From positions 11,731 through 75,730 of the forward strand of contig CAZAFL010000003.1 of assembly GCA_964484465.1 (NCBI GenBank): DNA of 64,000 bases. Direction: 5' to 3'. Below the pieces are notes generated by a model. It did no database searches. It saw nothing but the letters and a program-made list of their open reading frames with translations, and was not told the origin of the DNA. A program made the translations under genes and the position numbers. The DNA is from an uncultured Chlorobiaceae bacterium. GTDB taxonomy: Bacteria > Bacteroidota > Ignavibacteria > UBA10030 > SZUA-254. Of this stretch, positions 6,078-29,283 are shown one piece after another (position 1 is the first letter of the stretch; each line of letters opens with the position of its first letter).

Positions 6078-6245
6078 GATACGCCCCTTAAATGTTAAGA
6101 AGAACTTGTGATGGTGACCGATCCGTAACCCCAAGCAACAAATAGGTAAGTCATTTCTATTTAAAGAAAGGATAGATGAAAGTCAAGGAAAATATTGGAA
6201 AATGAGGAAGGAATAGAATCAAACAGGCTCATGACCGGAAAGGAT

Positions 6246-10390: not shown

Positions 10391-10391
10391 A

Positions 10392-11750
10392 TTATTTGCC
10401 CTCCTTCCGGCCTGCGGCGGCGAGTTCCCGTTTTCCTTGCGGTACAACGCTCAAAACAAGACAGCCATCATCCCTTAAGTATGTTTGTGCTACAGTTTCA
10501 ATGTCATCGGCATCCACGGCTTTGTAGCGTGCGAGGTCTTCATTAAAATAATCCGGGTTTCCTGTTTCCGTATAATAATCCCCCAGCTGGTCTGCCTTGC
10601 CTGGGATGCTTTCCAACCTATCGAGAAAACTCGCTTCATACTGATTAACGGCACGTTTGAGCTCCCGTTCTGATGGCGCCTCGCGCTTCATGCGCTTTAA
10701 TTCTTCACGTATAACGGTCTCAATCTCTGTCAGTGTGTGGCCACTGCGGGCAGTAGCGACAACGTAAAACTTTGAAGCGAGCTTTCCCGATGCTTGAAAC
10801 GCTGAAACATCCTGTGCGATTTGCAGATCATAGACCATTCGTTTGTACAGTCTCGAATTTTTCCCGCCGGCAAATATACTTGCAAAAATATCCAGTTCTG
10901 CATCGCCAGGTGAAAAATGTGTCGGCGTGAGCCAGACAAGATATAATCGTGGCAATTGTACTTTATCCTCGGTTACCAGTCGTTTCTCTTCTGTCAATAC
11001 AGCCGGTGGGGGTGCAATGGGTTCGACCGGCTTACCTGCAGGAACGTCCTCAAACCACTTATTCATGAGTTTCTTGCACTCGGTATAATTAATATCACCT
11101 GCGATGACCATGTGGGCATTATTTGGTATATAATATTTCTTAAAGAAATCTACTACATCCTGGTAACCCGCAGCGGTGAGATCATCCATGTAGCCAATTG
11201 TAGGCCAATGATAAGGGTGTTCGGGGGGAAAGATATTCTCATCGATAATTATCGGCGCCATTCCGTACGGCCGGTTTTCGTATGATTGCCGCCGCTCGTT
11301 CTTTACAACATCGCGCTGCTGGTCCACGCGCGCAGGTGTCATCACATCGAGCAGATATCCCATGCGATCGGATTCAAGGAATAACGGAAGTTCAAGTGCA
11401 TTGCTTGGGACATTTTCAAAATATTTCGTCCGGTCTGTCGTCGTCGACCCGTTGTTATCACCGCCTGCAGCTTCCAGCCATTGGTCGAATTTACCTTCAG
11501 GCACATGGCCAGATCCCTCAAACATGATATGTTCGAAGAGATGCGCAAAACCGGTCCGCCCCGGCTTTTCCCTTCCTGAACCGACATGGTACCAGATATT
11601 TACCGAAATTACCGGTATTGAGTGATCCTCATGTAAAATGACCTGCAAGCCGTTATCAAGTGTAAATTTTTGATATTTAATTTTCAGTTGAGCAGATACC
11701 AACGAAACAGCACTCGATAACACTACAAAAAACAGAATTCGTAGTTTCAT
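10392..11750 (-). CDS. M16-family zinc peptidase, active-type subunit (pitrilysin/insulinase-like)
   Basis: HxxEH zinc motif HLFEH in GFAHLFEHIMFEGS, signal peptide MKLRILFFVVLSSAVSLVSAQ, 452 aa. It is directly followed by the overlapping inactive-type partner. Confidence 0.8.
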   Translation of the reverse strand: MKLRILFFVVLSSAVSLVSAQLKIKYQKFTLDNGLQVILHEDHSIPVISVNIWYHVGSGREKPGRTGFAHLFEHIMFEGSGHVPEGKFDQWLEAAGGDNNGSTTTDRTKYFENVPSNALELPLFLESDRMGYLLDVMTPARVDQQRDVVKNERRQSYENRPYGMAPIIIDENIFPPEHPYHWPTIGYMDDLTAAGYQDVVDFFKKYYIPNNAHMVIAGDINYTECKKLMNKWFEDVPAGKPVEPIAPPPAVLTEEKRLVTEDKVQLPRLYLVWLTPTHFSPGDAELDIFASIFAGGKNSRLYKRMVYDLQIAQDVSAFQASGKLASKFYVVATARSGHTLTEIETVIREELKRMKREAPSERELKRAVNQYEASFLDRLESIPGKADQLGDYYTETGNPDYFNEDLARYKAVDADDIETVAQTYLRDDGCLVLSVVPQGKRELAAAGRKEGK

Positions 11751-11847
11751 AACAGACTCCGGATGGTGATGATTTCGAACGTTTCAGAGGTATACGGAAT
11801 TACACACAGGAAGATACGGAGAATATCAGATAGGGGCAAGGATTGGA

Positions 11848-11890
11848 GGGTAATCTCCCCGCAGGTTCGTAACCTGCGGGGAGATTACCC
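11848..11890. repeat. Perfect 20-bp inverted repeat (GC-rich hairpin) just downstream of nuoI
   Basis: GGGTAATCTCCCCGCAGGTT-cgt-AACCTGCGGGGAGATTACCC with a 3-nt loop and no adjacent U-run. Confidence 0.8.
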
Positions 11891-11902
11891 GTGGTATCGT
11901 TA

Positions 11903-12409
11903 CTATCTATTTTGACGCAGAAATTCCAATCTTTCCTTTAGTTGCTCTGCGGGAACGAGAAGTTTGTCCTTTCCAAAGATGGCATCTTCCTGCCTGGTGA
12001 ATGTCAGCTCGTACTCTTTACTCATGACGATCGCCTCTTCAGGGCATACCTCTTCACAGAATCCGCAGAAAATACAACGAAGCATATTAATCTCGAATTT
12101 TACCGGATACCGCTCCTTCCAGTATTCACTTTCAGAACCCTGTACTTCAATGGCAAGTGCAGGACACACGCGCGCACACAATCCGCACGCAACGCATCGC
12201 TCCACTCCCTTCTCTTCGACAAGAACCGGTCTGCCGCGGAATGAAGCCGGTGGATTCCATTTCTCTTCGGGATATTGCCGCGTAAACTTCGGCTTAAAAA
12301 TTTGGCCGATCGTTATCAATAATCCCCGAAAAATCTCCGGCAGGTACATTTTCTGGAGAATTGTCAGATCTCTTTTATGAATAATCTCTTTATGTCCGTC
12401 AGGCTTCAT
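11903..12409 (-). CDS. nuoI: NADH-quinone oxidoreductase subunit I
   Basis: Two 4Fe-4S ferredoxin motifs, [12 protein letters not shown] and [12 protein letters not shown]. Start trimmed to MKPDGHKE to remove a 47-nt overlap with nuoH. Confidence 0.85.
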
Positions 12410-12428
12410 GGTTGAACTTCGTGAATTA

Positions 12429-13445
12429 TTAATTAACCAGTAACAAAATCGCACCTGTTGCAAGCAGATTCGCAATAGCCAACGGTAACATCACCTTCCA
12501 CCCCAAATTCATCAACTGGTCATAGCGGAAACGGGGGATCGTCCAGCGTACGATGATGAAGAAAACGACCAGCGCCGCAACCTTTGCGCAAAACCCAAGA
12601 ACCTGGACGACACTCACCCAGAAATCAGACAAACCGAGATGATGGACAAACGGTACTTGCCATCCGCCAAGGTACAGTGTTGTAATAATCGCGCTTGCTG
12701 TTACCATGTTCGCATATTCTGCAAGAAAGAATAACCCAAATTTCAATCCGCTGTATTCGGTGTGGTACCCTCCTACGAGCTCGGGCTCAGCCTCAGGCAA
12801 ATCGAACGGAAGACGGTTCGTTTCTGCAAACGCGGAAACGACAAACGTGATAAATCCCACCGGCTGCAGGATCATATTCCATTTCCACCCCGATTGCGCG
12901 AGGACAATTTTATCGAGCTGTAAACTTCCGGCAATCATGATCACGCCGATAACCGAAAGTCCCATCGATAATTCGTAACTTATCATTTGCGCAGACGAGC
13001 GCATTCCCCCGAGCAAAGAATATTTACTATTTGAGGACCACCCGCTCAGGGTGACACCGTAAACTCCGAGAGACGCGAACGCGAGAATAAACAGGATTCC
13101 GATATTAACATCGGCAATCTGGAGTTTTACATCGTGCCCGAAAAGGGTGATATGATTGCCGAACGGAACGACGGCAAACGTTACGAGGGCAACACTGATG
13201 GAAATCACCGGCGCGAGGTCATGAATGAACCTGTTCGCCTCAGCGGGAACAATATCTTCCTTCATCACCAGCTTGACGACATCTGCCAACGGCTGAAGGA
13301 ATCCCTTCCATCCTACCCGATTGGGACCTATCCGGTTCTGGATGGCAGCTGCAAGTTTCCTCTCGAGCAACACTGTATAGGCAACGACCGTCAGCATCAC
13401 TCCAAGAACACAGATGATTTTGATAAGAGAAATAATAATTTCCAT
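12429..13445 (-). CDS. nuoH: NADH-quinone oxidoreductase subunit H
   Basis: Polytopic membrane protein with the NuoH/ND1 signature (..[20 protein letters not shown]..). Confidence 0.85.
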
Positions 13446-13446
13446 G

Positions 13447-15129
13447 TTATACCGGGGTGGAGGTCAGTTCTTGTTTTGATTTCATCATCAACCCACGCGC
13501 GCCGAGACTGAGATAGGTCATCCCTTTAAATGGCTCCAATGTAGAAGCAAGCTCGTTAAAGACTTCTTCTGCCGTTGCGTATTTCCACTTCACGCCAAGA
13601 ATTGCAACAGCGACCGAAGAAATAATCCGCCATGCGGGCCGCGCGTCCCGTCTGATTCCCCTGGTCCAGCGATCATTCTGCGCGCCGAATTTGTCGAGCC
13701 TGCTCATCGCGAACCCGTCGAGTGCGCGGTCCTGCTCTACTGTAGTGACCGCCGGTCGTATCCGCTGAACACGTCCGTTGAAATTCGTAAACGTGCCGTG
13801 TTGTTCTGCATACGTTGAGTTTGAAAGCACAACATCAGCGTATTTCGCGGTTTCATTTTCATTCGATGTATGGAGAACAAGGAAATCCAGTTTCGGCAGC
13901 ACCTCAGCAACGGTCGGATCCGTAGCAATGTCATCGTCAAGGCAATACAGAGCTTTAATCGTTCCTTCCTTAATTCCTTTAATAATGCCCTCAAATCCCA
14001 GACCGTTTGTGCCGGGTTTGACACCTACTTCCTTTGCGCCTAAACTGTTCGGAGTCTTATCTGCGCGGATCAGGAGACCGTCTTCATCTCCACTCTTGAC
14101 ATGAGGCATATAATCAAGGTTGACAACACCGAGGTGTTTCATCATTTTTGCAAAGAGGTAATTTCCCTCATTCGTCACATACGCAGAGCCAAGGCCTGCG
14201 ATTTCATTGTTCTTGAACCCTTTCAAACCGGACGCCACCCGAGAAAATGCCTCATCCCAACCGACCTCCACTAACTCCCCTTCTTTGCGAATCATCGGCG
14301 CTTTTATTCTGGCGGGTGCATTCACAAATTTAAACGTATTGAGACGGCCGTGATCACACATCCAGTAATCATTGACATCGGGGTTGAAACGCGGAGTGAG
14401 ACGAAGAATTTCATTATTTCTCACCCACATTTTGATATTACAGCCACGCGCACAACCGTGACAAATTGTGTCTGTCGACGACAACTCCCACACGCGCGCC
14501 TTAAATCGAAAATCCCTACTCGTCAACGCGCCAACAGGACAAAGGTCGATGGTATTCATTGCATATGGATTATCGAGGCTCTCTCCGGGAAACGTGGTCA
14601 GGACAACATGGTCGCCGCGCTGAGTAAAGGTGAGCTGGGGTTTCTTTGCAACCTCATCACAAAACCGAATGCACCGTGAACACATAATACACCGCTCTAC
14701 GTCAAGCATCACACTTGGTCCCAATGCTACCCGTTTCGGTTTCCGGACCTTGTCGAAATCAAATCTGCTGACGCCGATGCTATGCTTGTACGCATAATCC
14801 TGAAGCTTGCACTCTCCCGCTTCATCACAAATAGGACAGTCGAGCGGATGATTGATGAGCAAAAACTCCATCACCGCCTCACGCGCGTGCAGAACTTTTT
14901 CCGATCGCGTTTTGACAACCATACCTTCGGTAACAGTTGTCGCGCAGGCAATCACGAGCTTCGGCATCTTGTCCACTTCGACCAGACAGATGCGGCAGTT
15001 TCCGGCAACGGAAAGCTTCGGGTGCCAGCAAAAGTGAGGGACACTGATCCCCTGTTCACGCGCGGCTTGAATAATTGTACGATTCGGTTCGACTTCGTAC
15101 GGTTGACCGTCGATAGTAATTTTTACCAT
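13447..15129 (-). CDS. nuoG: NADH-quinone oxidoreductase subunit G (short form)
   Basis: N-terminal 2Fe-2S ferredoxin-like region (CWHPKLSVAGNCRICLVEV) and Fe-S cysteine clusters (CPICDEAGEC, CIMCSRCIRFC). It lies immediately upstream of nuoH. Confidence 0.8.
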   Translation of the reverse strand: MVKITIDGQPYEVEPNRTIIQAAREQGISVPHFCWHPKLSVAGNCRICLVEVDKMPKLVIACATTVTEGMVVKTRSEKVLHAREAVMEFLLINHPLDCPICDEAGECKLQDYAYKHSIGVSRFDFDKVRKPKRVALGPSVMLDVERCIMCSRCIRFCDEVAKKPQLTFTQRGDHVVLTTFPGESLDNPYAMNTIDLCPVGALTSRDFRFKARVWELSSTDTICHGCARGCNIKMWVRNNEILRLTPRFNPDVNDYWMCDHGRLNTFKFVNAPARIKAPMIRKEGELVEVGWDEAFSRVASGLKGFKNNEIAGLGSAYVTNEGNYLFAKMMKHLGVVNLDYMPHVKSGDEDGLLIRADKTPNSLGAKEVGVKPGTNGLGFEGIIKGIKEGTIKALYCLDDDIATDPTVAEVLPKLDFLVLHTSNENETAKYADVVLSNSTYAEQHGTFTNFNGRVQRIRPAVTTVEQDRALDGFAMSRLDKFGAQNDRWTRGIRRDARPAWRIISSVAVAILGVKWKYATAEEVFNELASTLEPFKGMTYLSLGARGLMMKSKQELTSTPV

Positions 15130-15135
15130 ACGATC

Positions 15136-16566
15136 TTACACTTCTTCGAGTTCTTTAACGTAGCGTTCGTGGAATGATTTTAGTTTTTCTACAAACGCTT
15201 CAATTTCCTCGAGCGGTGGAAGGAATGTTGTTCTGAAGTGGAATGTTCCTGATGACTGGCCAAACCCCGACCCGGGAACGACGCAAATTCCTGTCTCCTC
15301 CAATAACGCCATGCAATAATCATTATCGCGCTGACTCTCGTATTTCAACCTCTCCGCCGAATCCATTTTCGAAAGGTCAACATTCGGATCGTCGGGCAAT
15401 TCAAATTTCACAAACGCGTACATTGCTCCCTGCGGAACCTCGAGCGTCATCCCTTCAATCCGGTTGACCTCTCTCCCCAGAAGCTCTGCTTTTGTTTTAA
15501 GGTCTTGAAGGACAGCGTCCCGTTCACGCACATAACGCTCATAACTTTCTTCACCCGGTTGGGGAGGAGCAACCATGACAAGAGTAGCAATTTGTCCGAC
15601 GGTGTTTGCACAAAGGCTGATCGACTGGAGCTTGATCAGTTCGGTCAAAACGTCAGTGGGAATATTCCTGAATTCAGTATAACCGCCGCGATGTCCGCAT
15701 TCCCCCCAAAAACCTTTCGAAACAGAATGAAAACTAAAGAGTGATACATCCTCTTCACCCATTTCATGCATCACCTTAGCGAACGAATAGAATTTTGCTC
15801 CTGCCGCGTACACATTCTCTTGGTAGACCTCGTCGGCAAGAATTGAAAGACGATGTCGCCTGGCGAAGCCGATAATCATCCGGATATTTTCGTGAGAAAG
15901 GACGGCACCGGTTGGATTCCCAGGATTGATAACCGCAATGGCAACAGGATTCATGCCGTCCCGAATAGCCTTATTCAAACTGTCGTTAAGAACTGACTCA
16001 TTCAATTGCCAGTGATTCTCTTCATCAAGAAAATATCCGATTTGGCGACCGCCGAAAAGTAAAATACTGGCACTGTACAGAGGATATTGCGGCATCGGAA
16101 TCATGATACCGTCATTCGGATTCTTCAAGAGTGCGATGAGCGCTCCCTGCACACCTTTACTCGCCCCGTCGGTGAGAATAACATAATCCTTATTTGTTGG
16201 AATACCGTCCCGCCGGTGGATAAAATCGGCAACCGCCTGCCGGATAAACGAAATCCCGGCGCTCTGTGTGTAGGCACCGGTTCCATGCGGATGACGTTCG
16301 AGAATCGATTGCACCCGACGAATGACGTCTGCCGGATAGAGTTTTCCGACTTGAGGAGAAGTCAGTAATTCAGGATATTCAAGTAAACTCAATATCTGCC
16401 GTAAATACGTCAGCGGTTTTTGTTTCAGTGCCTGGGGATTTCCGATGTTACAATAGATGATTTTCCTTCCTTCGTTCTCCAATTGCTGAGCCCTTATAAC
16501 AATCGGGCCCCGAACAGCATATTCGGCTTCCAGCAACCTCCGATTCAATGAATCTCTGCGCAACAT
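15136..16566 (-). CDS. Alanine aminotransferase (eukaryotic-type ALT family, PLP-dependent class I)
   Basis: Close motif match to ALT (INPGNPTG, LADEVYQENVYAAGAKFYSF, SFHSVSKGFWGECGHRGGY). Start trimmed to MLRRDSL to avoid an overlap with the downstream M16 gene. Confidence 0.75.
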   Translation of the reverse strand: MLRRDSLNRRLLEAEYAVRGPIVIRAQQLENEGRKIIYCNIGNPQALKQKPLTYLRQILSLLEYPELLTSPQVGKLYPADVIRRVQSILERHPHGTGAYTQSAGISFIRQAVADFIHRRDGIPTNKDYVILTDGASKGVQGALIALLKNPNDGIMIPMPQYPLYSASILLFGGRQIGYFLDEENHWQLNESVLNDSLNKAIRDGMNPVAIAVINPGNPTGAVLSHENIRMIIGFARRHRLSILADEVYQENVYAAGAKFYSFAKVMHEMGEEDVSLFSFHSVSKGFWGECGHRGGYTEFRNIPTDVLTELIKLQSISLCANTVGQIATLVMVAPPQPGEESYERYVRERDAVLQDLKTKAELLGREVNRIEGMTLEVPQGAMYAFVKFELPDDPNVDLSKMDSAERLKYESQRDNDYCMALLEETGICVVPGSGFGQSSGTFHFRTTFLPPLEEIEAFVEKLKSFHERYVKELEEV

Positions 16567-16609
16567 CTCATCTATTATATATAGCTGGCAACAAAATTGA
16601 CTATCGTGT

Positions 16610-17884
16610 TCACGCTGCGTTGGTTGAGGCGGCAGGTTTGAAAATGATTGTTGAAAAATTTTCCAGTTGGAAAAGACGTTTTGCCGTTTCAAAAACCTGC
16701 TCTGCAGTGACTGCTTCAACTTTTTTCAAAATAGTGCTCAGCGGAAGATAATTTCGGACATACATTTCACCGCTTCCCAAACGCATCATCCGGCTCGACA
16801 TGCTCTCGAGGCTCAGCATCATTGTCCCTTTGAGCTGGGCTTTCGTTCGTTTCAATTCGGCGTTCCCTACCGGTTTCGTCGTCAGCTTGTTCAGCTCTTT
16901 GTGAATGAGCTCAATTGAATTGTCAACATTCTGCGCATCCGTTCCGATATAGACGCCAAAATTACCGGTGTCGCTGAGAAGGTTGCTGTACGAATAGACA
17001 CTATACGCGAATCCGTATTTCTCACGAATGTTTTGAAACAAGCGTGAACTCATCCCTTCGCCAAGCAATGTGTTGAGGACGAGAAGAGGATACCGAAAAT
17101 GACTTTTTACGCTGTAGCCGATCGTACCGAGACAGACATGCGCCTGGCTGATGGGTCGCTCAAACTCTTCCCGCTTCGAGTAGACACGGTTTGAAACCGA
17201 GGCCCGCTTGGCTTGATTACGTTGCGGCTTACGGGATCGAAAATACTGTTCAACCAAATCAACGACTGCCTGATGCTTTAAATTTCCCGCTGCTGCAACT
17301 ACAATCCGGTTTGATGTATAATGGGTCTTCGCATGGTTCAGCAAATCATCTTTCGTAAAATTCCTGATATTTTCGGCTTTTCCGATCACTGGAAAACCTA
17401 GCGGGTGCTTATAATAGACACGATGGTCGAGGTAATCGTGAATAAGGTCGTCCGGGTCGTCTTCGATATTCTTCAATTCTTCCAGTACGACAAATTTCTC
17501 CTTTTCCATCTCCTTTTTATCGATAAGAGGATGTTGCACCAGTTCTGAGAGAACGTTGACTGCTTTCGCGAGATGTTCATCGAGTATTCGCGCATAAAAA
17601 CAGGTGTGCTCTTTGGACGTAAACGCGTTGAGGTATCCTCCGACCGATTCTAGACTCTGCGCAATCTGCTGGGTTGTAAATTGTCGAGTTCCTTTAAACA
17701 CCATATGTTCGACGAAATGGGAAATGCCGTTGTTATGTTCATTTTCATCCCGGGAACCGACATTAATCCACACTCCGATGGAAACTGACCGCACATATGG
17801 AATTTCTTCAGTAACAATCCGGATACCGTTTGGTAGGACAGTTTTTTTGTAATTAGACTGGTCAGATGAAAGAATGTCCGACAT
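16610..17884 (-). CDS. M16-family zinc peptidase (active type)
   Basis: HxxEH motif HFVEH (GISHFVEHMVFKGT), 424 aa, two-domain M16 architecture. Confidence 0.8.
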   Translation of the reverse strand: MSDILSSDQSNYKKTVLPNGIRIVTEEIPYVRSVSIGVWINVGSRDENEHNNGISHFVEHMVFKGTRQFTTQQIAQSLESVGGYLNAFTSKEHTCFYARILDEHLAKAVNVLSELVQHPLIDKKEMEKEKFVVLEELKNIEDDPDDLIHDYLDHRVYYKHPLGFPVIGKAENIRNFTKDDLLNHAKTHYTSNRIVVAAAGNLKHQAVVDLVEQYFRSRKPQRNQAKRASVSNRVYSKREEFERPISQAHVCLGTIGYSVKSHFRYPLLVLNTLLGEGMSSRLFQNIREKYGFAYSVYSYSNLLSDTGNFGVYIGTDAQNVDNSIELIHKELNKLTTKPVGNAELKRTKAQLKGTMMLSLESMSSRMMRLGSGEMYVRNYLPLSTILKKVEAVTAEQVFETAKRLFQLENFSTIIFKPAASTNAA

Positions 17885-22259: not shown

Positions 22260-22276
22260 CGTGAAAATTTTTCACG
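22260..22276. promoter_or_regulatory. Perfect 17-bp palindrome (candidate operator) in the divergent promoter region
   Basis: CGTGAAAA-T-TTTTCACG. Nearby are direct repeats TTT(A/T)CCCCTAAA(G/A)ATA at about 22160 and 22279, and ACACGTGT at about 22323. Confidence 0.5.
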
Positions 22277-22392
22277 TTTTTCCCCTAAAAATATTGACGG
22301 TTTTACGCTATTTATATATCTTACACGTGTACCTCTGCCAAAGAAAATTCTTTTTTACCAATCACAATAGTATTACGAAGGAGAAGTTACCT

Positions 22393-22671
22393 ATGTCAAA
22401 ATCTGCTATCCGCAAGCGCAATGTAAAGCGTTTTCGGTCGATCTTGATCACGATGGCGCTGGTAGTGGCAACGAATTTTGCCATTTCCTATGCGAACGCA
22501 GGATTTGGAAACAAAGCCGGACTTTCAATGATTCCGGATTCACCGAGACCGAAAGCCGGGCTCTCGATGATTCCCGATTCTCCACGGCCGAAAGCCGGAC
22601 TTTCAATGATTCCGGATTCACCGAGACCGAAAGCCGGGCTCTCGATGATTCCCGATTCTCCTCGTCCATAG
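22393..22671 (+). CDS. Small signal-anchored/secreted protein with four exact tandem 13-aa repeats (KAGLSMIPDSPRP)x4
   Basis: RBS GAAGGAG 6 nt upstream of the ATG. Basic N-terminus (MSKSAIRKRNVKRFRS) followed by a hydrophobic stretch ILITMALVVATNFAISYANA. Four 39-bp units (22513..22668) alternate A-B-A-B' with only synonymous differences. A dedicated terminator follows. Confidence 0.65.
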   Translation: MSKSAIRKRNVKRFRSILITMALVVATNFAISYANAGFGNKAGLSMIPDSPRPKAGLSMIPDSPRPKAGLSMIPDSPRPKAGLSMIPDSPRP

Positions 22672-22800: not shown

Positions 22801-23799
22801 GTGGAAGAAGTAAACCAAGACAACGTTGTTTCACCGGAGAAGCACAGGGCAATCTTCACCAGGCTTCCTCGGTTATCCCTTCACATTTTCCTTTTCATTT
22901 TAACATTCTTTACAACCACCCTTGCAGGTATCGGATGGCTCAATAAAGACCCTCTCGAACTGACAAATTTCTCGCTGGGATTACCATACTCACTCAGCCT
23001 GCTCGCCGTTCTTGCCGCACACGAATACGGTCATTATTTCGCTGCAAAATTTTATAGGATCTCAACAACATATCCTTATTTCATACCGTTTCCGTCGGTC
23101 CCTCCTCTGATCCTTAACCCTTTCGGAACAATGGGCGCCGTTATTCGCATCCGCACACCAATTACATCTAAAAAGGTCCTTTTTGATATCGGCATCGCGG
23201 GGCCACTTGCAGGCTTAGTCGTGACTTTGGGCTTACTCTTTTATGGATTTTTTACCATGCCCCCCAAAGAGTACCTCTTCTCCATTCATCCGGAATATGC
23301 CGGAATGGATTCAATCCCCAGCGCTGGACTTACCCTCGGAAGTTCTCTTTTCTTCTGGGCAATATCCAAATTCTTTGCACTCAGCACGTTTGTTCCACCT
23401 ATGAATGAAATTTACCATTATCCTTTCCTTTGTGTAGGCTGGTTCGGTCTTTTTATCACAGCCCTTAACCTGATTCCCGTCGGACAATTAGATGGAGGAC
23501 ATGTTCTCTATGCACTCATCGGCCGCAAACAGGGTATAATCGCCCGAGTATTTTTTGTCGGATTAATCCTCACCGGATTATTAAGTTTCATTCCCTTCTT
23601 CGGCGGAAATATTCAGACCGGGACACTCGGATGGCTGGTCTGGGCAGGCATACTGTTCTTCCTTATAAAACTTGACCATCCCGAAATTTTCGACGATTCA
23701 GCACTTGATAAAAGACGAAAAGTTTTGGGATGGGTCACGTTCGGCATTTTTATCGTAACATTCCCGCCGGTTCCTTTTTATCAAATATTAGGAAGTTAA
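22801..23799 (+). CDS. Site-2 protease family (M50) intramembrane metalloprotease, PDZ-less
   Basis: HExxH within a TM segment (AAHEYGHYFAA) and the LDG motif NLIPVGQLDGGHV (NxxPxxxLDG). Polytopic, 332 aa. Confidence 0.75.
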   Translation: MEEVNQDNVVSPEKHRAIFTRLPRLSLHIFLFILTFFTTTLAGIGWLNKDPLELTNFSLGLPYSLSLLAVLAAHEYGHYFAAKFYRISTTYPYFIPFPSVPPLILNPFGTMGAVIRIRTPITSKKVLFDIGIAGPLAGLVVTLGLLFYGFFTMPPKEYLFSIHPEYAGMDSIPSAGLTLGSSLFFWAISKFFALSTFVPPMNEIYHYPFLCVGWFGLFITALNLIPVGQLDGGHVLYALIGRKQGIIARVFFVGLILTGLLSFIPFFGGNIQTGTLGWLVWAGILFFLIKLDHPEIFDDSALDKRRKVLGWVTFGIFIVTFPPVPFYQILGS

Positions 23800-23951: not shown

Positions 23952-25130
23952 ATGCGGATCGCTTTTCATTCTATACCCTCAATTCTCGTAGTAAGCTTAT
24001 TTTTTTTCTCTTGTGAAAAGGAACGAAACGGGTCTCTGGATTCTTCTATAAATCCACCGTTTCTATCTGGCGCCAGCCTCATGACCTCAATAATTAATCT
24101 GGATGATACTGCAAACACATTCATAACACGACTCCCGGACGGGACATTCAGCATCTCTGATTCTATTACTGCAGTGGTTTCCGACCCCGATGGCATACAG
24201 GATATCTCAAGGGTATATTTCCAGATCTATCATCCTGGAAACGCAAACCCCGATGCCAAACAGTTGCTCATAAAAAGTGGCAACATAGCGGTTTCAGGAG
24301 GCGGGGAAGGTCTTATCTTTACCGGGAAGCTTTCCTTTAATATAGACCGATCCCAAACGGGAATTTACAGAGTGGAAGTATTTGCTGTCGACAAGAGTAA
24401 TTCGATCAGCAATACTCTTCTGCGGCCTGTTATCATTACTGTGAATAATCGACCGCCACATCTTGGAATTCCTTCGTACCGAGAATATTCCCCTCCCGGC
24501 TCAGATTCGGCTACATTTACGTTTTTCGTCGCAGCTACCGACTCTGACGGCATTGAAGATATTTCGTCAGTCACAGTCCAACCGTTGTTTGCATCCGATA
24601 CATCTGTTAAATCGATGTATGACGACGGATTACCAGAACATGCAGATAACGTGCCAGGTGACGGAATTTATTCAACGAGATTTTCCATTGACACGGCTTC
24701 TCTCAGCCTGATTGAATTTCGATTTTTAGGAAAGGACAAATCCGGCGCCCTCAGCAATATCGTCAGGCGAACATTGCATAATAGACCTCCCGCATTTCTT
24801 AATTTAGATGTTCCGGATTCCATCCAGCGACCCCTCTCGGGCGTCGTTGTAGTGCAATTCTCAGCGACCGTGACTGACCTCGACAGCTTAAGCGATATTG
24901 ATTCGGTTTATTTCCGGAATTTCAGCTCAATCAATCCCTTAAACATCTTTCAGATGTACGATGACGGGAATTTTGCACAGCACGGCGATTCCACGGCAAA
25001 CGACGGCATATATTCATTTCTCGCACAAGTAGACCCATCGACTTCTCTCGGTGTGAAAGAGTTTCATTTCTATGTGGTCGATAAAGCCGGCGCGCGGGAT
25101 GAGCGTATTAAATACATAACAATTTATTGA
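23952..25130 (+). CDS. Putative lipoprotein with three tandem ~100-aa Ig-like repeats
   Basis: Signal peptide ending in the lipobox-like FFFSC. Three repeats share D(P/S/L)DG(I/L)xDI(S/D)xV ... DGIYS motifs. Its stop overlaps the start of the next gene (TGAATG). Confidence 0.55.
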   Translation: MRIAFHSIPSILVVSLFFFSCEKERNGSLDSSINPPFLSGASLMTSIINLDDTANTFITRLPDGTFSISDSITAVVSDPDGIQDISRVYFQIYHPGNANPDAKQLLIKSGNIAVSGGGEGLIFTGKLSFNIDRSQTGIYRVEVFAVDKSNSISNTLLRPVIITVNNRPPHLGIPSYREYSPPGSDSATFTFFVAATDSDGIEDISSVTVQPLFASDTSVKSMYDDGLPEHADNVPGDGIYSTRFSIDTASLSLIEFRFLGKDKSGALSNIVRRTLHNRPPAFLNLDVPDSIQRPLSGVVVVQFSATVTDLDSLSDIDSVYFRNFSSINPLNIFQMYDDGNFAQHGDSTANDGIYSFLAQVDPSTSLGVKEFHFYVVDKAGARDERIKYITIY

Positions 25131-26801
25131 ATGCGCTCCGGAAAGTTTATATCGCTGGCAATTCTTATCCTCCTTTCCTTCGCGTACCAAAACCTCTCCT
25201 ATGCACAGGGAACTTTCGCGAAGGGCTACAAGCTCGAAGGAGTTTCCTCTTCACAATCGAGCAACCTCCCCATCAGTAACAGCGTTTCGCAGATAGTAGC
25301 TGCTGATTCCATTCTATGGGCAGGAACGGGGAAAGGCGTTATGAAAAGTGCAACGTTCGGAGCCAGTTGGGAAAACTTTTATTCAGAAAAAGCCTTTGCA
25401 AATGAAGGCATCTTTGCTCTCGCAGTCAACGGAGATACTATCTGGGCGTCAACGGGTTATGACAAAGATGTTGGCGGAGACCAGACGATTCAAACCGGGA
25501 GCGGATATGCTTTTTCAATTGATGGCGGCATTACTTGGAAACACGTCAACCAGCCGCTCGATACCTGTATTCAGCTTCCCTCCTCTGATGGAAGACGAAT
25601 TTGTAAGAAAGATATTCTCAAACCCTACGGCATTAACAGCGGTACAACAACAACTGCGGTTACAACAACTGTCGCAAACGTATCGTATGACATTGCACTG
25701 GGCCCCGGCACGGTGTGGGTCGCTAGCTGGTCAAGCGGTTTGCGAAAATCCACAAATAACGGATCTACCTGGGAAACCGTCCTCCTCCCCCTGGATAACC
25801 TGAACTCGCTAAGACCAACCGATACCCTCTGGTCTTTTCATCCGAGCGATACCTTGCGTGCGGATACACTCTTCCCATTTTTCGATGTTGTACTCAACGA
25901 TAACTTAAAGGCATTTGCCGTACATGTTTCCGATAACGGGCAGACGATATGGTGCGGGACAGCAGGAGGCGTAAATAAATCCACTGACGGCGGTGTCAGC
26001 TGGGAAAAATTTTACAACAACAATTCTCAGGCAACACGGATTCTCAGTAACTGGGTGTATAGAATAGGCGAGCAGCATTTTCAGGGAAAACAACGTATCT
26101 GGACAACGAACTGGAAGAAGGAACCTCCGAGTTATTACGACCTCCCACAGGAATACGGGGTTAGCTATACGGATGACGATGGCAGAACGTGGAAGAACCT
26201 CCTTCAAGGGATAAAACCGTTTAATTTCGCTTTCAAGGATTCCATTGCATACATCACGACTGAAAACGGGCTCTACCGCACGGCGGACGGAGGCTTAAGT
26301 TTCACTAACGTATCAAATATCGTCGACCCTGTATCACATCAAATCATCACAACAACACAATTTATTTCAGTCGGAGTCATCGGCGATACCGTTTTTGTTG
26401 GAACTGACGCAGGAATCGCCTCAACTGTTGATAACGGAACTATACCGTTCGGTTCTTCCTGGAAAATCTATCGGGCATACCAGGCAGTAGGGTCGTCGCC
26501 AACAACTTATGCATACCCCAATCCTTTTTCCCCCGATCTGGAGCTTGTAAGAATCCACTATGGATCAAAAGCCTCATCGGCTTCATCGACGCGGAATGTA
26601 AGCATTGAAATTTTTGATTTCGGAATGAACCACGTGCGAACTCTCGTGAATAATGCACAACGCTCTGCTTCCCTCGAATATGATGAATTGTGGGATGGAA
26701 GAAATGATGACGGGAGACAGGTCGCAAACGGGGTATATTTCTACAGAATTAAAGTAGACAGTGACGACCCGACGTATGGAAAAATTTTAGTGCTGCAATG
26801 A
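25131..26801 (+). CDS. Secreted BNR/sortilin-like repeat protein with T9SS type-A-like C-terminal domain
   Basis: Signal peptide MRSGKFISLAILILLSFAYQNLSYAQG. Motifs SIDGGITWK, STNNGSTWE, STDGGVSWE, TDDDGRTWK. C-terminus YAYPNPFSPD...WDGRNDDGRQVANGVYFYRIKV. Its stop overlaps the next start. Confidence 0.7.
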   Translation: MRSGKFISLAILILLSFAYQNLSYAQGTFAKGYKLEGVSSSQSSNLPISNSVSQIVAADSILWAGTGKGVMKSATFGASWENFYSEKAFANEGIFALAVNGDTIWASTGYDKDVGGDQTIQTGSGYAFSIDGGITWKHVNQPLDTCIQLPSSDGRRICKKDILKPYGINSGTTTTAVTTTVANVSYDIALGPGTVWVASWSSGLRKSTNNGSTWETVLLPLDNLNSLRPTDTLWSFHPSDTLRADTLFPFFDVVLNDNLKAFAVHVSDNGQTIWCGTAGGVNKSTDGGVSWEKFYNNNSQATRILSNWVYRIGEQHFQGKQRIWTTNWKKEPPSYYDLPQEYGVSYTDDDGRTWKNLLQGIKPFNFAFKDSIAYITTENGLYRTADGGLSFTNVSNIVDPVSHQIITTTQFISVGVIGDTVFVGTDAGIASTVDNGTIPFGSSWKIYRAYQAVGSSPTTYAYPNPFSPDLELVRIHYGSKASSASSTRNVSIEIFDFGMNHVRTLVNNAQRSASLEYDELWDGRNDDGRQVANGVYFYRIKVDSDDPTYGKILVLQ

Positions 26802-27754
26802 AGAAAAAGATGCTCTATGTTGTTTTAATGTTATTGCTGCCTTTCGGGCTTTTTGCTCAGATCGGAGGTACAGCCGGCGCATTTTCTCGCCTCGGTTTCG
26901 GGGCACGGGGAATGGGAATGGGAAATGCGTTAACTGCTGTCAGCACTGGCGATATCAGCACGTATTATAATCCTGCGCTGGCAGCGTTCAGCGATCAACG
27001 GACAATCGCCGCTTCGTTCGGCATTCTCTCCCTCGACCGCTATCTGAATTTCATCAGTTACACGCAATCGATACAATCTCAGGCGGGCATCTCCGCCGGA
27101 CTGATCAACTCGGGCGTGCGAAATATTGATGGACGTGATAACGACGGCGTCCACACCGATGATTATTCAACCTCGGAAAATCAGGTATATCTTGCGTTTG
27201 CGAACCGCGTCGACCCTCGTGTCTCCCTCGGCGTCTCGATCAAACTTCTTTACAGCAGACTCTTTGACCAGGTGACTTCGTCAACTGTCGGTTTCGATGT
27301 TGGCGGGTATTTCCAGTTGACCGATGAGCTATCCGCCGGACTCACTGTTCAGGATCTAAATTCAAAATACAAATGGAATACACAATCGGTGTATGGTTCA
27401 GAGAATGGAGGACAAAGGCAAACACAAAACGATTTTCCTACACTGGTCCGTGTCGGACTCGCTTATCGCCTGCCGCAAAACACCGGCGTTGTATCTGCAG
27501 AGTTCGAAAATTCTTCGGAACACACAAACAGCATACGCCTCGGTGCAGAATATAGTATGATGGAATACTTTAGCGTTCGGAGTGGCATTGACCGGTGGGA
27601 ATTTGGCGACAACACAACCGGAGTGAAACCGACGTTTGGATTTACTGCAAAAAAATCGTTTAATCAATGGACGCCGGCTGTTACCTATGCATTTATTGTT
27701 GAAGGGTTTAGCCCTCACGGCATACATATGATCACACTCTCAACTACATTTTAA
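26798..27754 (+). CDS. FadL/PorV/PorP-like outer-membrane beta-barrel protein (paralog 1)
   Basis: Signal peptide, then the FadL/OMPP1-type N-terminal motif LGFGARGMGMGNALTAV..DISTYYNPAALA. C-terminus ends in an aromatic residue (..STTF). Confidence 0.55.
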   Translation: MKKKMLYVVLMLLLPFGLFAQIGGTAGAFSRLGFGARGMGMGNALTAVSTGDISTYYNPALAAFSDQRTIAASFGILSLDRYLNFISYTQSIQSQAGISAGLINSGVRNIDGRDNDGVHTDDYSTSENQVYLAFANRVDPRVSLGVSIKLLYSRLFDQVTSSTVGFDVGGYFQLTDELSAGLTVQDLNSKYKWNTQSVYGSENGGQRQTQNDFPTLVRVGLAYRLPQNTGVVSAEFENSSEHTNSIRLGAEYSMMEYFSVRSGIDRWEFGDNTTGVKPTFGFTAKKSFNQWTPAVTYAFIVEGFSPHGIHMITLSTTF

Positions 27755-27756
27755 GT

Positions 27757-28662
27757 ATGAAAAAGCAGATTCTCGTATTCACTCTCTTGCTCATTACCTG
27801 CAGAACATTCTTATATTCCCAGGCTGGGAGTACGGGGTTATCTTTCCTGAAACTTGGCGTTGGTGCAAGGGCGCTCAGCATGGGCGAAGCATATACCGCA
27901 ATCGCATCGGACCCTTCGGCAACGCATTACAACCCGGCAGCATTATCGCTGATGAACAATTCTCAAATCTTATTGATGCATAAGGAATGGATTCAGGATA
28001 CAAAGACAGAATTCCTCGCAGCGACAACGTCATTCGACAAGTTTAATGCTGGTATTAGTATCAACGGCACGACAATCAGCGATATTGAGCTCCGCACAAC
28101 TCCCGGTCCTGCACAGGGAACGTTTACAGCACGCAACGCCGCTATCGGAATTTCCGCTTCTTATGCACTCGATACGGCGCTGAGCGTGGGCGCAACTATG
28201 AAATACCTTTATGAAAAAATTCTTGTCGATGAAGCCAACGGATTAGGGTTCGATATCGGGGCTATTTACAGGACACCATGGGACATCCGGCTGGGTGCGG
28301 CTGTCTGTAACCTGGGGTCAATGAACGAATTGCGGAATGAGTCGTCAAAACTTCCACAAATGGTAAGATTCGGTGCAGCGTATGAGTCCCGGATTGAAAG
28401 CTTCGATGGTACGTTTACCGGATCAATCGATGTGGTGACACTATCAGGCGAAAGCCTGACACACGTCCTTTTCGGTGGAGAATTAAATTACCACAATACG
28501 TTTGCATTGCGGGCAGGGTATCAGACGTCATACGAATCGAAAAATTTCACGGCTGGAATCGGTATACATTACGGGTTGATCGGACTAAATTACGCTTTTG
28601 TTCCTTTTAAATACGACTTCGGTACGACCCACACATTTTCCTTAGGGATTGAAATCCCATAA
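27757..28662 (+). CDS. FadL/PorV/PorP-like outer-membrane beta-barrel protein (paralog 2)
   Basis: Same N-terminal motif (LGVGARALSMGEAYTAIASDPSATHYNPAALS). Tandem paralog of the preceding gene, separated from it by 2 nt. Confidence 0.55.
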   Translation: MKKQILVFTLLLITCRTFLYSQAGSTGLSFLKLGVGARALSMGEAYTAIASDPSATHYNPAALSLMNNSQILLMHKEWIQDTKTEFLAATTSFDKFNAGISINGTTISDIELRTTPGPAQGTFTARNAAIGISASYALDTALSVGATMKYLYEKILVDEANGLGFDIGAIYRTPWDIRLGAAVCNLGSMNELRNESSKLPQMVRFGAAYESRIESFDGTFTGSIDVVTLSGESLTHVLFGGELNYHNTFALRAGYQTSYESKNFTAGIGIHYGLIGLNYAFVPFKYDFGTTHTFSLGIEIP

Positions 28663-28717
28663 ACTGTTCCCTATACAATGCTGGTCAATTGATATTGTGA
28701 ACTTTAGTGAGATACCT

Positions 28718-29218
28718 ATGAAACAATTACCCATATTCTTCCTTCTTCTTGGTTTAACGGCGCCTGGATTGGCTGGCGAAAAAAAAGAGCTTACCTGGAC
28801 TAATTTTAATGATGGACTCGAACAGGCGAAGAAAAACGAAAAACACCTTCTCATCGACGTTTACACCAGTTGGTGCGGATGGTGTAAAAAAATGGACAAA
28901 GATGTCTACGGTAATGATTCAGTTGCGCAATATCTCAATCAACATTTTATCCTTGTGAAACTAGATGCAGAGTCACAGGAGAAAGTAACCTACAACGGCA
29001 AGCCCCTCACCGAACGAGCGCTTGCTGAATATTTCGGTGTCGCGGCATATCCGACCACAGTTTTCTTGGAATCCGACGGTAAACTTGTCTCCCCAGTCGA
29101 AGGCTACATCGAGGCAGAAACGTTTCTGGATGTTACTAAATTCATCGGTGAAAGCCTGTATAAAAAGATGACATGGAAAGAATACCAGTCAAAAACGGAA
29201 AATTCCATAAAAAAATAA
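28718..29218 (+). CDS. Periplasmic thioredoxin-fold protein (CxxC)
   Basis: Signal peptide MKQLPIFFLLLGLTAPGLAG and thioredoxin-like motif YTSWCGWCKKMDKDVY. Start trimmed to ATG 28718. Confidence 0.65.
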   Translation: MKQLPIFFLLLGLTAPGLAGEKKELTWTNFNDGLEQAKKNEKHLLIDVYTSWCGWCKKMDKDVYGNDSVAQYLNQHFILVKLDAESQEKVTYNGKPLTERALAEYFGVAAYPTTVFLESDGKLVSPVEGYIEAETFLDVTKFIGESLYKKMTWKEYQSKTENSIKK

Positions 29219-29242
29219 TATTATCTTTTTTTCGTCATGTTA

Positions 29243-29283
29243 AAATCTCGACTATTCCTTTTGTAGTTGAGATTTTTTTATTT
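29243..29283 (+). terminator. Intrinsic terminator at the end of the five-gene operon
   Basis: AATCTCGACT...AGTTGAGATT stem followed by TTTTTTTATTTT. Confidence 0.5.

What the first reader, a model, noticed from the sequence alone, without database searches (positions are those of the whole stretch)
23952..29218. Five-gene operon coupling a T9SS-type cargo to two dedicated FadL/PorV/PorP-like barrels and a periplasmic thioredoxin
The genes are tightly packed with overlapping stop/start codons (TGAATG at 25131, ATGA at 26798, a 2-nt gap at 27757) and a terminator only after the last gene. The order is: lipoprotein with 3 Ig-like repeats, BNR-repeat protein with a T9SS type-A CTD (the WDGRNDDG...GVYFYRI variant), two tandem paralogous ~300-aa outer-membrane proteins, and a signal-peptide-bearing CxxC thioredoxin-fold protein. 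The two ~300-aa proteins carry the FadL/OMPP1 N-terminal motif (LGxGARxxxMGxAxTA...YNPAAL), a motif I also associate with PorV. In Bacteroidota, PorV-family and PorP/SprF-family barrels act as cargo shuttles or cargo-specific adaptors and are often encoded next to their cognate cargo (sprB-sprF). A cargo gene followed by two paralogous small barrels and a redox partner suggests a self-contained secretion/attachment cassette for this particular cargo, perhaps involving a disulfide step. Attribution to the T9SS is by motif memory.
Basis: partly seen in the sequence, partly recalled or inferred. Interest (0 to 1): 0.6.

Follow-up and report, generated by a model that had tools for sequence, protein, structure and literature searches.

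The report
Propeller protein with private PorV-like anchors
A tightly conserved operon in Ignavibacteria-type bacteria encodes a beta-propeller protein with its own unusual type IX secretion tail next to two PorV/PorQ-family outer-membrane barrels that most likely hold it on the cell surface; the neighbouring thioredoxin is only a local neighbour.

Summary
The five genes, their overlaps and the terminator are real. Both ~300-aa proteins are PorV/PorQ-family barrels: they pass the NCBIfam family cut-off, and g4's closest solved relative by sequence and fold is the T9SS shuttle PorV. They are not FadL-type uptake channels, PorP/SprF or BamG. The 556-aa protein is a seven-bladed-type propeller plus a C-terminal beta-sandwich.

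- **The tail.** It is homologous to T9SS CTDs but forms a distinct class. It is more conserved than the propeller and was found only on this protein's orthologues.
- **The conserved unit.** The core is g2-g3-g4, usually preceded by the lipoprotein g1. The order and 4-6 nt spacing hold in more than 130 loci. In Zixibacteria at ~30% identity, all flanking synteny is lost. Anchoring on g2, 38 of 39 loci with room carry both barrels.
- **The thioredoxin.** It is adjacent only in the nearest clade, and g1-g4 contain no conserved disulfide pair.

Best reading: a PorQ-PorZ or PorV-PorU-like module, in which a T9SS-exported protein is retained on dedicated barrels through an uncleaved CTD.

It is unresolved whether these barrels are private paralogues or the lineage's general PorV/PorQ. 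New variant of a known kind; moderate interest.

The parts
23952..25130 (+). g1: lipoprotein (lipobox ...LFFFSC, acidic residues after the Cys) with Ig-like repeats carrying choice-of-anchor X motifs. It is a fast-evolving accessory partner.
   Evidence: ORF. NCBIfam choice_anch_X 48.2 bits against cut-off 25, two stretches. It lies directly upstream of g2 in most Ignavibacteria-type loci at 24-42% identity, is not detected in Zixibacteria, and is present with four choice_anch_X stretches in L083.
25131..26495 (+). g2 N-terminal part: signal peptide (predicted mature N-terminus Gln26), short linker and a BNR/Ycf48/Reg_prop-like beta-propeller.
26496..26801 (+). g2 C-terminal domain (residues ~456-556): beta-sandwich of the T9SS CTD type, forming a private class (YPNPF...WDGRNDDG...ANGVYFYRI...GKILVLQ).
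   Evidence: Sub-threshold FlgD_ig 25.4, CHU_C 21.2 and Por_Secre_tail 16.5 bits; PorU C-terminus E 4.6e-8. It is 63% identical to orthologues against 54% for the propeller. The CTD HMM scores 57-176 bits on g2 orthologues and at most 41 bits on every other cargo tail in 1.73 Mb. Its motifs differ from the three canonical cargo tails in the window.
26798..27754 (+). g3: PorV/PorQ-family outer-membrane barrel, paralogue 1.
   Evidence: NF033709 101.3 bits against cut-off 90, full-length match 26-316. PorQ 59 and PorV 44 bits are below the equivalog cut-offs. 26% identical to g4. It always lies between g2 and g4.
27757..28662 (+). g4: PorV/PorQ-family outer-membrane barrel, paralogue 2. It is the better conserved of the two and occurs alone in Eisenbacteria.
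   Evidence: NF033709 161.1 bits; Pfam UPF0164 43.4 bits against cut-off 21.4. The model has an N-terminal helical segment that looks like a FadL-type plug, then 14 strands (pLDDT 83.3). Profile against PDB: PorV 6h3i_F E 4e-18, TbuX 0.2. Foldseek: PorV 8gl6_F E 2e-14, TM 0.78.
28718..29218 (+). g5: secreted thioredoxin-fold protein (DsbH/DUF255-like, WCGWC). It is probably co-transcribed here but is not part of the conserved module.
   Evidence: Pfam Thioredox_DsbH 64.7 and Thioredoxin_2 60.8 bits. It is adjacent only in the closest clade, displaced or absent elsewhere. The g4-g5 gap has a median of 55 nt and exceeds 1 kb in 21% of loci.
29242..29276 (+). Intrinsic-terminator-like hairpin closing the transcription unit.
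   Evidence: 14-pair stem, 7-nt loop and T-run.

Best explanation
g2-g3-g4 (with g1 in Ignavibacteria) is a self-contained type IX secretion surface-display module of the PorQ-PorZ or PorV-PorU kind.

**Proposed steps (all inferred by analogy)**
1. g2 is exported by Sec.
2. It crosses the outer membrane through the T9SS, using its C-terminal beta-sandwich domain.
3. It is not handed to the general shuttle and sortase. It is collected and kept on the cell surface by one or both of the adjacent dedicated PorV/PorQ-family 14-stranded barrels.
4. These barrels bind its specialised, probably uncleaved, CTD.
5. The lipoprotein g1 is a lineage-specific, probably surface-exposed partner.
6. The thioredoxin g5 is a neighbour that is co-transcribed in this clade but has no demonstrable role in the module.

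**Shown here:** family membership and fold of the barrels; the propeller-plus-CTD architecture; the distinctness and high conservation of the CTD; near-obligate gene linkage across phyla.

**Not shown:** secretion through the T9SS, CTD retention, physical binding of g2 to g3 or g4, and the biochemical activity of the propeller.
For: - **Barrels.** g3 and g4 pass the NCBIfam PorV/PorQ family cut-off (101 and 161 bits against 90), as do the Zixibacterial copies (141 and 200 bits). The g4 profile hits PorV at E 4e-18 and FadL-type channels only at E >= 0.2. Its model has a plug-like N-terminal segment and 14 strands, and it superposes best on PorV (TM 0.78).
- **g2.** It is a propeller plus beta-sandwich.
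- **CTD.** Its CTD is more conserved than its propeller (63 against 54%). It resembles the retained PorU C-terminus (E 4.6e-8) more than the generic type-A tail. It forms a class found only on g2 orthologues (57-176 bits against <= 41 bits).
- **Internal control.** A g2-like propeller paralogue with an ordinary CTD (L158) has no barrels next to it.
- **Linkage.** All g4-anchored Ignavibacteria-type and Zixibacterial loci with enough upstream DNA show g2-g3-g4, including Zixibacteria where every flank differs. Anchored on g2, 38 of 39 and 16 of 16 loci have the barrels. Median gaps are 4 and 6 nt.
- **T9SS is present.** Three proteins in the window carry type-A CTDs above the cut-off.
- **Precedent.** PorU and PorZ are T9SS substrates with uncleaved CTDs, anchored on PorV and PorQ. 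PorQ is proposed to collect PorZ from the translocon (PMC10947112; PMC12365241). porU and porV are adjacent genes (PMC5445135). Type-B cargos use adjacent cognate shuttles (PMC12618676).
Against: - No interaction, localisation or secretion data exist.
- g2's tail scores below the curated cut-offs of every CTD model.
- g2 gives no sequence match to PorZ (NF052228 absent; no 5m11) and has one propeller rather than two.
- Why two barrels are needed is unexplained.
- A g4-like barrel occurs without g2 or g3 in Eisenbacteria, so g4-type barrels can serve other roles.
- I could not establish whether other PorV-family genes exist in these genomes (one search covers only +/- 8 kb).
Confidence: 0.55

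Rival explanations
1. General machinery. g3 and g4 are this lineage's only PorV and PorQ orthologues, and g2 is its functional PorZ (or another attachment-complex subunit). The operon would then encode core T9SS attachment or shuttle machinery serving all type-A cargo, not a private display module.
For: - g2, g3 and g4 are conserved at housekeeping-like levels. g2 is 48-63% identical, comparable with the M50 protease and aspartokinase flanks.
- The module is apparently single-copy and present in every Ignavibacteria-type locus sampled.
- The organism has ordinary type-A cargo that needs a PorV.
- The Zixibacterial g4-like protein scores higher on PorV (101.5 bits) than on PorQ (85.7), while the g3-like protein scores slightly higher on PorQ.
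- PorZ is the top Foldseek hit of g2.
- LPS genes (GT9 heptosyltransferases; an ArnT-like gene and O-antigen-type genes in I. album) lie next to the module.
Against: - Both barrels are short (301 and 318 aa, against about 390-400 aa for PorV). Both fall far below the PorV (250) and PorQ (220) equivalog cut-offs, and in this window both score higher on PorQ than on PorV.
- There is no sequence match to PorZ or to a PorU sortase domain.
- The LPS genes are on the opposite strand and belong to clade-wide synteny that is lost in Zixibacteria.
Confidence: 0.22
2. T9SS-independent uptake or envelope complex. The barrels work as FadL-like channels for hydrophobic molecules, and the propeller and the lipoprotein are surface binding partners. 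The C-terminal domain would be just an FlgD-type Ig domain.
For: - FadL, TodX and TbuX are the next-best fold matches (TM 0.60-0.67).
- g4 has a weak Toluene_X N-terminal match (17.5 bits).
- Pfam places g4 in UPF0164, a family defined in spirochaetes.
- g2's tail scores best on FlgD_ig.
Against: - Sequence profiles separate the barrels clearly from FadL-type channels (PorV E 4e-18 against TbuX 0.2), and Toluene_X is below its cut-off.
- The tail HMM recovers bona fide type-A CTD cargos as its only other hits. The tail starts with the CTD-typical YPNPF motif and resembles the PorU CTD.
- The taxa that carry the module encode abundant CTD cargo.
Confidence: 0.1
3. BAM-accessory analogue. The barrels act like BamG, a FadL-family barrel that holds the surface lipoprotein BamH on the Bacteroidota BAM complex, and g1 and g2 act as canopy proteins.
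For: BamG chains appear among the g4 fold matches (9n2d_B E 9e-7; 9hjm_F). BamG binds the N-terminus of a surface lipoprotein (PMC12611786), and g1 is a lipoprotein.
Against: No NCBIfam BamG match for the window proteins, and only 23.5 bits against a cut-off of 250 for a Zixibacterial copy. PorV is a far better match by both sequence and fold. The module is not next to bamA in any locus examined.
Confidence: 0.04

Closest known systems
PorQ-PorZ subcomplex of the Porphyromonas gingivalis T9SS attachment complex
   Same: A PorV/PorQ-family 14-stranded barrel is paired with one beta-propeller surface protein. That protein is itself a T9SS substrate, and its CTD is atypical and retained (PMC10947112, PMC12365241). 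g2 has the same propeller-plus-CTD layout, and PorZ is its top Foldseek hit.
   Different: - g2 has one propeller (556 aa), not two (about 750-780 aa).
- g2 shows no detectable sequence homology to PorZ.
- There are two barrels here instead of one.
- The genes here form a tight, conserved operon, whereas porQ (PG0602) and porZ (PG1604) are unlinked in P. gingivalis.
- A-LPS binding is untested.
PorU-PorV pair (T9SS sortase anchored on the shuttle PorV)
   Same: The gene for a CTD-bearing surface protein lies directly next to the gene for the PorV-family barrel that anchors it (75 bp apart in P. gingivalis). g2's tail matches the PorU C-terminus (E 4.6e-8). g4's closest solved relative is PorV.
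   Different: g2 has no gingipain-like sortase domain. g3 and g4 are about 80-100 residues shorter than PorV and miss the PorV equivalog cut-off (44 and 71 bits against 250).
Type-B CTD cargo with cognate PorP/SprF-like shuttles (SprB-SprF and relatives in Flavobacterium johnsoniae)
   Same: The same genetic logic applies: a cargo gene followed by the gene for its own outer-membrane shuttle or anchor, with CTD-shuttle specificity (PMC12618676).
   Different: The barrels here belong to the PorV/PorQ family, not PorP/SprF (no PF11751 match). The CTD is not type B (CHU_C 21.2 bits, below its cut-off of 27). There are two barrels per cargo. The module is conserved across phyla rather than being strain-variable adhesin loci.
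BamG-BamH of the Bacteroidota BAM complex; FadL/TodX channels
   Same: All share the 14-stranded FadL-type barrel architecture, and BamG is used as a holder for a surface-exposed protein (PMC12611786).
   Different: Neither the BamG model nor the FadL/Toluene_X model is met. There is no link to bamA.

Membership tests
PorV/PorQ family (NCBIfam NF033709) | Full-length match at or above the curated cut-off (90 bits) | tested here: met
   g3 scores 101.3 bits (residues 26-316) and g4 scores 161.1 bits (26-299). The Zixibacterial orthologues score 141 and 200.5 bits.
PorV/PorQ family (NCBIfam NF033709) | 14-stranded FadL-type barrel with an N-terminal plug segment; closest solved structure is PorV | tested here: met
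   For g4, the model has a plug-like helical N-terminal segment and 14 strands. Foldseek gives PorV 8gl6_F/6h3i_F at E 2e-14, TM 0.78, and the profile gives E 4e-18. Its membership is inferred from its 26% full-length identity to g4.
PorV/PorQ family (NCBIfam NF033709) | Binds the CTD of a T9SS substrate at the cell surface | not testable with these tools
   Needs a multimer prediction or pull-downs. Only genetic linkage is shown.
PorV proper (NF033710) and PorQ proper (NF033711) equivalogs | Score at or above the equivalog cut-off (250 and 220 bits) | tested here: not met
   g3 scores PorQ 59 and PorV 44.3. g4 scores PorQ 101.7 and PorV 70.6. These models may be tuned to Bacteroidia and Flavobacteriia, so orthology is not excluded.
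FadL/OMPP1/TodX transporters (Pfam PF03349 Toluene_X) | Match at or above the gathering score (29.7 bits) | tested here: not met
   g4 scores 17.5 bits, over the N-terminal motif only (37-73). g3 has no match. The profile against solved FadL-type channels gives E >= 0.2.
PorP/SprF (Pfam PF11751) | Match to the family model | tested here: not met
   Neither g3 nor g4 matches at E <= 0.1. A few g4 homologues carry precomputed PF11751 hits.
T9SS type-A CTD (TIGR04183 / PF18962 Por_Secre_tail) | C-terminal domain scoring at or above the cut-off (23 and 27 bits) | tested here: not met
   g2 scores 15.1 and 16.5 bits. Three other proteins in the window score 31-36 bits. None of the 120 listed g2 homologues carries a precomputed PF18962 hit, whereas many carry PF13860 FlgD_ig.
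T9SS CTD superfamily (broad sense) | C-terminal ~80-100-residue beta-sandwich homologous to known CTDs, at the extreme C-terminus of a Sec-exported protein | tested here: met
   Beta-sandwich strands span residues 459-554 in the model. The PorU C-terminus matches at E 4.6e-8 and at E 0.013 against solved PorU 6za2. The g2-CTD HMM retrieves bona fide type-A cargo tails at 14-41 bits. The tail starts with the YPNPF motif.
PorZ (NCBIfam NF052228) | Sequence match to the family; two beta-propellers plus CTD | tested here: not met
BamG (NCBIfam NF053685) | Score at or above the cut-off (250 bits) | tested here: not met
   The window proteins give no match. A Zixibacterial g3-like protein scores 23.5 bits.
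Thioredoxin fold, DsbH/DUF255-like (Pfam PF03190, PF13098) | Domain match above the cut-off, a CxxC motif and a signal peptide | tested here: met
   g5 scores 64.7 and 60.8 bits. It has WCGWC at residues 52-56 and an N-terminal hydrophobic leader. The DsbH equivalog is not met (59 against 190 bits).
choice-of-anchor X domain proteins (NF041940) | Domain match at or above 25 bits | tested here: met
   g1 scores 48.2 bits over two stretches. The L083 orthologue scores 89.9 bits over four stretches.

The most novel reading that the evidence does not exclude
The g2-g3-g4 operon is the form that the T9SS attachment or shuttle machinery takes in Ignavibacteria, Zixibacteria and related FCB lineages. 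On this reading g3 and g4 are the true PorQ and PorV counterparts. g2 is a single-propeller functional equivalent of PorZ, delivering the anchoring glycolipid or otherwise organising cargo attachment. This would be core machinery that has gone unrecognised because every component falls below the Bacteroidia-trained model cut-offs.
Probability: 0.22. Interest if true: 0.7.

Novelty: new variant of a known kind. Interest (0 to 1): 0.5.

Why it matters
T9SS biology rests almost entirely on Porphyromonas and Flavobacterium. There, all type-A cargo is thought to use one general PorV, and dedicated shuttles are known only for type-B cargo (PorP/SprF) and for PorZ (PorQ).

This module is a compact, operon-encoded pairing of one distinctive CTD with two PorV/PorQ-family barrels, conserved across at least two phyla. 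It offers a clean natural system for asking what in a CTD specifies its shuttle or anchor, meaning the 'targeting signal' as opposed to the 'secretion signal'. Hundreds of co-evolving sequence triplets are available for covariation and multimer modelling.

If the barrels prove to be the lineage's general PorV and PorQ, the module would instead define the attachment machinery of the non-Bacteroidia FCB lineages. It would also give a name to a widespread 'hypothetical protein'.

Tried and rejected
- **Source contig.** Exact look-up of the window's g4, and of its 100% identical database twin P0001, found no encoding contig. Cluster look-up gave no name or accession. The source organism therefore stays unidentified, beyond its nearest relatives being Ignavibacteria-type MAGs.
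- **PorU in I. album.** The 1088-aa protein upstream of the cassette (L050) is only a type-A CTD cargo, not PorU.
- **BAM-accessory idea.** I tested BamG/BamH against the 2025 BAM paper and the NCBIfam BamG model and rejected it.
- **Disulfide step.** I tested this by cysteine conservation and rejected it. g1 has only its lipobox Cys. g3 has no cysteines. g4 has none that are conserved. g2 has one invariant lone Cys275 and a non-conserved pair.
- **Extra barrels.** An HMM search of all ORFs in 1.73 Mb of fetched loci found no third PorV-family barrel. This covers only +/- 8 kb per genome, so it is uninformative genome-wide.
- **Literature.** Searches for T9SS components in Ignavibacteria and Zixibacteria returned nothing specific.
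- **Eisenbacteria.** The g4-like barrel there has no g2 or g3 neighbour.
- I did not use the representative-library search or the third homologue search, because neither gives taxonomy or genome context.

Full report
**1. Observation**

| Gene | Coordinates | Length | Features read from the sequence |
|---|---|---|---|
| g1 | 23952-25130 | 392 aa | lipobox LFFFSC |
| g2 | 25131-26801 | 556 aa | |
| g3 | 26798-27754 | 318 aa | |
| g4 | 27757-28662 | 301 aa | |
| g5 | 28718-29218 | 166 aa | leader peptide, WCGWC |

- The g1 stop abuts the g2 start. g2 and g3 overlap by 4 nt. The g3-g4 gap is 2 nt and the g4-g5 gap is 55 nt.
- The only strong terminator-like hairpin on this strand (14-pair stem, T-run) is at 29242-29276.
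- The window is 43-50% G+C with no compositional break at the locus.

**2. What the proteins are**

*g3 and g4*
- Both pass the curated cut-off of the NCBIfam PorV/PorQ family model (101.3 and 161.1 bits against 90). Both fall well below the PorV, PorQ and PorV2 equivalog cut-offs.
- In Pfam, g4 passes UPF0164. Its PorV and Toluene_X matches are sub-threshold, and there is no PorP_SprF match.
- A profile of 32 g4 orthologues hits F. johnsoniae PorV at E 4e-18. The FadL-type channels TbuX and CymD reach only E 0.2-0.3.
- The g4 model (pLDDT 83) has an N-terminal helical segment that looks like a FadL-type plug, followed by 14 strands.
- It superposes best on PorV (E 2e-14, TM 0.78). FadL, TodX and TbuX follow (TM 0.60-0.67) and BamG is further down.
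- g3 and g4 are old paralogues (26% identity, E 1e-21).

*g2*
- The model is good (pLDDT 82.8, pTM 0.80): a beta-propeller followed by a C-terminal beta-sandwich.
- Foldseek ranks PorZ (5m11) first. It is only just ahead of the HTCS sensor propellers, GH74 and Ycf48.
- There is no sequence match to the PorZ model or to the PorZ chain.

*The g2 tail*
- It scores below the cut-off on every CTD model: FlgD_ig 25.4, CHU_C 21.2 and Por_Secre_tail 16.5/15.1 bits.
- It matches the C-terminus of the PorU sortase at E 4.6e-8.

*g1 and g5*
- g1 carries choice-of-anchor X motifs.
- g5 is a DsbH/DUF255-type thioredoxin.

**3. The organism has ordinary T9SS cargo, and g2 differs from it**

- Three other proteins in the window (1836, 840 and 952 aa) combine BNR/Ycf48-like propellers with type-A CTDs above the cut-off (31-36 bits).
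- Their tails share the canonical QNYPNPFNPST-IRF-LP motif series. g2's tail has the FlgD/PorU-like WDGRxDDG...ANGVYFYRI...GKILVLQ pattern.
- An HMM of the g2 tail scores 57-176 bits on g2 orthologues. It scores only 14-41 bits on every other cargo tail in the 1.73 Mb of DNA fetched, and 18 bits on the window's 952-aa cargo.
- Within the g2 family the tail is more conserved than the propeller (63 against 54% identity to the window protein). That is what one expects of a domain kept as a binding interface, not of a disposable signal. This last step is an inference.

**4. Conservation and linkage**

- g4 and g2 each have about 900-1050 database relatives at E <= 1e-5. The listed ones are 48-74% identical, and the named ones come from Ignavibacteria-type MAGs. 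There g4 is annotated 'PorV/PorQ family protein' and g2 'hypothetical protein'.
- *Anchored on g4.* A scan of one genome per GTDB species with the g4 profile gave 80 loci. Mapping the window proteins onto them shows g2-g3-g4 in the same order and strand in every Ignavibacteria-type locus with enough upstream DNA.
- *Zixibacteria.* The triplet is also present there (g2 28-31%, g3 30-33%, g4 35-39% identity). In those loci the M50, GT9, HhH-GPD and aspartokinase flanks are gone. The three genes sit alone between what look like uvrB and atpC on one side and an isocitrate/isopropylmalate-dehydrogenase-like gene on the other (identified by reading the ORF ends).
- The linkage therefore goes beyond general synteny.
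- *Anchored on g2.* In metagenome contigs, 38 of 39 loci with at least 2 kb downstream have g3 and g4, and 16 of 16 with 0.6-2 kb have g3.
- *The one exception.* L158 is a 682-aa g2-like propeller paralogue with an ordinary CTD (18.9 bits) and no barrels. It serves as an internal control tying the barrels to the private CTD.
- *Spacing.* Median gaps are 4 nt (g2-g3) and 6 nt (g3-g4), and 96% are <= 60 nt.
- *g1.* It is present upstream in most Ignavibacteria-type loci but evolves fast (24-42% identity). It is not detected in Zixibacteria.
- *g5.* It is adjacent only in the closest clade. It lies about 6 kb downstream in another clade and is not within 8 kb in I. album-like and Zixibacterial loci.
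- *Eisenbacteria.* A g4-like barrel occurs there without g2 or g3.

**5. The disulfide idea**

- The mature proteins contain no conserved cysteine pair:
  - g1 has only its lipobox Cys.
  - g3 has no cysteines.
  - g4 has none that are conserved.
  - g2 has a single invariant Cys275, in the motif [IV]WCGTA[GD]G, plus a pair present in 11% of orthologues.
- Together with the unstable linkage of g5, this removes the basis for a dedicated disulfide step.
- The lone invariant cysteine remains unexplained.

**6. Mechanism**

Established knowledge:
- PorU and PorZ are T9SS substrates whose CTDs are not cleaved.
- They are anchored on the PorV and PorQ barrels respectively.
- PorQ is proposed to collect PorZ from the translocon (PMC10947112; PMC12365241).
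- porU and porV are adjacent genes, whereas porQ and porZ are unlinked in P. gingivalis (PMC5445135).
- Type-B cargos use cognate PorP/SprF shuttles encoded next to them (PMC12618676).

The module here has the same logic, but with PorV/PorQ-family barrels and a private CTD class.

- *Best explanation (confidence 0.55).* g2 is exported through the T9SS and retained on g3 and/or g4 through its uncleaved CTD. g1 is a surface partner specific to Ignavibacteria.
- *Main rival (0.22).* The barrels are the lineage's general PorV and PorQ, and g2 is its PorZ equivalent. I could not separate the two readings because whole genomes cannot be scanned with these tools. The +/- 8 kb neighbourhoods contain no third PorV-family gene, but that says nothing about the rest of each genome.
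- *Weaker rivals.* A T9SS-independent FadL-like uptake complex (0.10) and a BamG/BamH-like BAM accessory (0.04) are disfavoured by the family and profile results.

**7. Novelty**

- I found no paper describing this operon or the T9SS attachment components of Ignavibacteria or Zixibacteria.
- Public annotation stops at 'PorV/PorQ family protein' and 'hypothetical protein'.
- The parts are of known kinds. What is new is the arrangement: one private-CTD propeller plus two PorV-family barrels, held as an operon across phyla. I rate it a new variant of a known kind, with interest 0.5.

Noticed in passing
window 22390-22671 (+), ORF listed as 22261..22671; 130 nt upstream of the M50 protease gene 22801-23799: A small protein with a basic stretch and a hydrophobic helix, followed by four identical 13-residue repeats (KAGLSMIPDSPRP). 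The ORF ends right after the last repeat. The 39-nt DNA units are only 81% identical (the 78-nt period is 100%), so the peptide is kept identical through synonymous differences. The same kind of ORF sits at the same position in at least 29 syntenic Ignavibacteria-type loci. The repeat unit differs between species (e.g. KTGSSLLPNPPRP, KATSALSIPTDTPRP, KSTVPILPDSPRP), with 3-4 near-identical copies within each protein, most ending in PRP. There is no Pfam match. It looks like a membrane-anchored multi-copy peptide precursor, possibly processed by the adjacent intramembrane M50 protease.
   Followed up: partly
window 624-6134 (-), 6246-8768 (-), 42958-45816 (-): Three large secreted proteins (1836, 840 and 952 aa) combine BNR/Ycf48/F510_1955-like propeller repeats with type-A T9SS sorting domains above the cut-off. 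g2's propeller is distantly paralogous to them (25-31% identity over local segments). Propeller-plus-CTD proteins are therefore a common cargo type in this organism.
   Followed up: partly
window 25131-28662 (signal peptides of g2, g3 and g4): The predicted signal-peptidase sites leave an N-terminal glutamine (SYA|QGT, LFA|QIG, LYS|QAG). Gln26 of g2 and Gln22 of g4 are at least 90% conserved among orthologues. This fits the Bacteroidota 'Q-rule' described in PMC5837995, in a lineage outside the classical Bacteroidia.
   Followed up: no
window 25953-25955 (Cys275 of g2): A single cysteine in the motif [IV]WCGTA[GD]G is invariant in all 36 aligned g2 orthologues, with no conserved partner cysteine anywhere in g1-g4. 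Its role is unknown. It could be a free thiol, an intermolecular disulfide or a ligand. It is the only conceivable link to the neighbouring thioredoxin.
   Followed up: no
window 48411-52928 (+) and 52929-55091 (+): A 1505-aa TamB-like protein (partial match to the autotransporter-assembly TamB model, 91.8 bits against a cut-off of 825) is immediately followed by RNase R (794 bits).
   Followed up: no
L069, L074, L076-L078, L080-L082 (Eisenbacteria MAGs); e.g. L078 8001-8912: A g4-type PorV/PorQ-family barrel (35-38% identical to g4) occurs alone, without g2 or g3 neighbours. In L078 it lies next to two divergently transcribed lipoproteins with an internally repeated domain. The g4 subfamily therefore also exists outside the triplet context.
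   Followed up: partly
L050 (Ignavibacterium album MAG) 8920-16788: In I. album the triplet is followed, on the same strand, by an ArnT-like lipid A glycosyltransferase homologue (69.8 bits, below its cut-off). After that come ORFs that by eye look like LPS/O-antigen-type genes (epimerase, formyltransferase-like, flippase-like). Other clades have GT9 heptosyltransferases next to the module. The recurrent proximity to LPS genes may be meaningful, given that PorZ binds A-LPS, or it may be coincidental.
   Followed up: no
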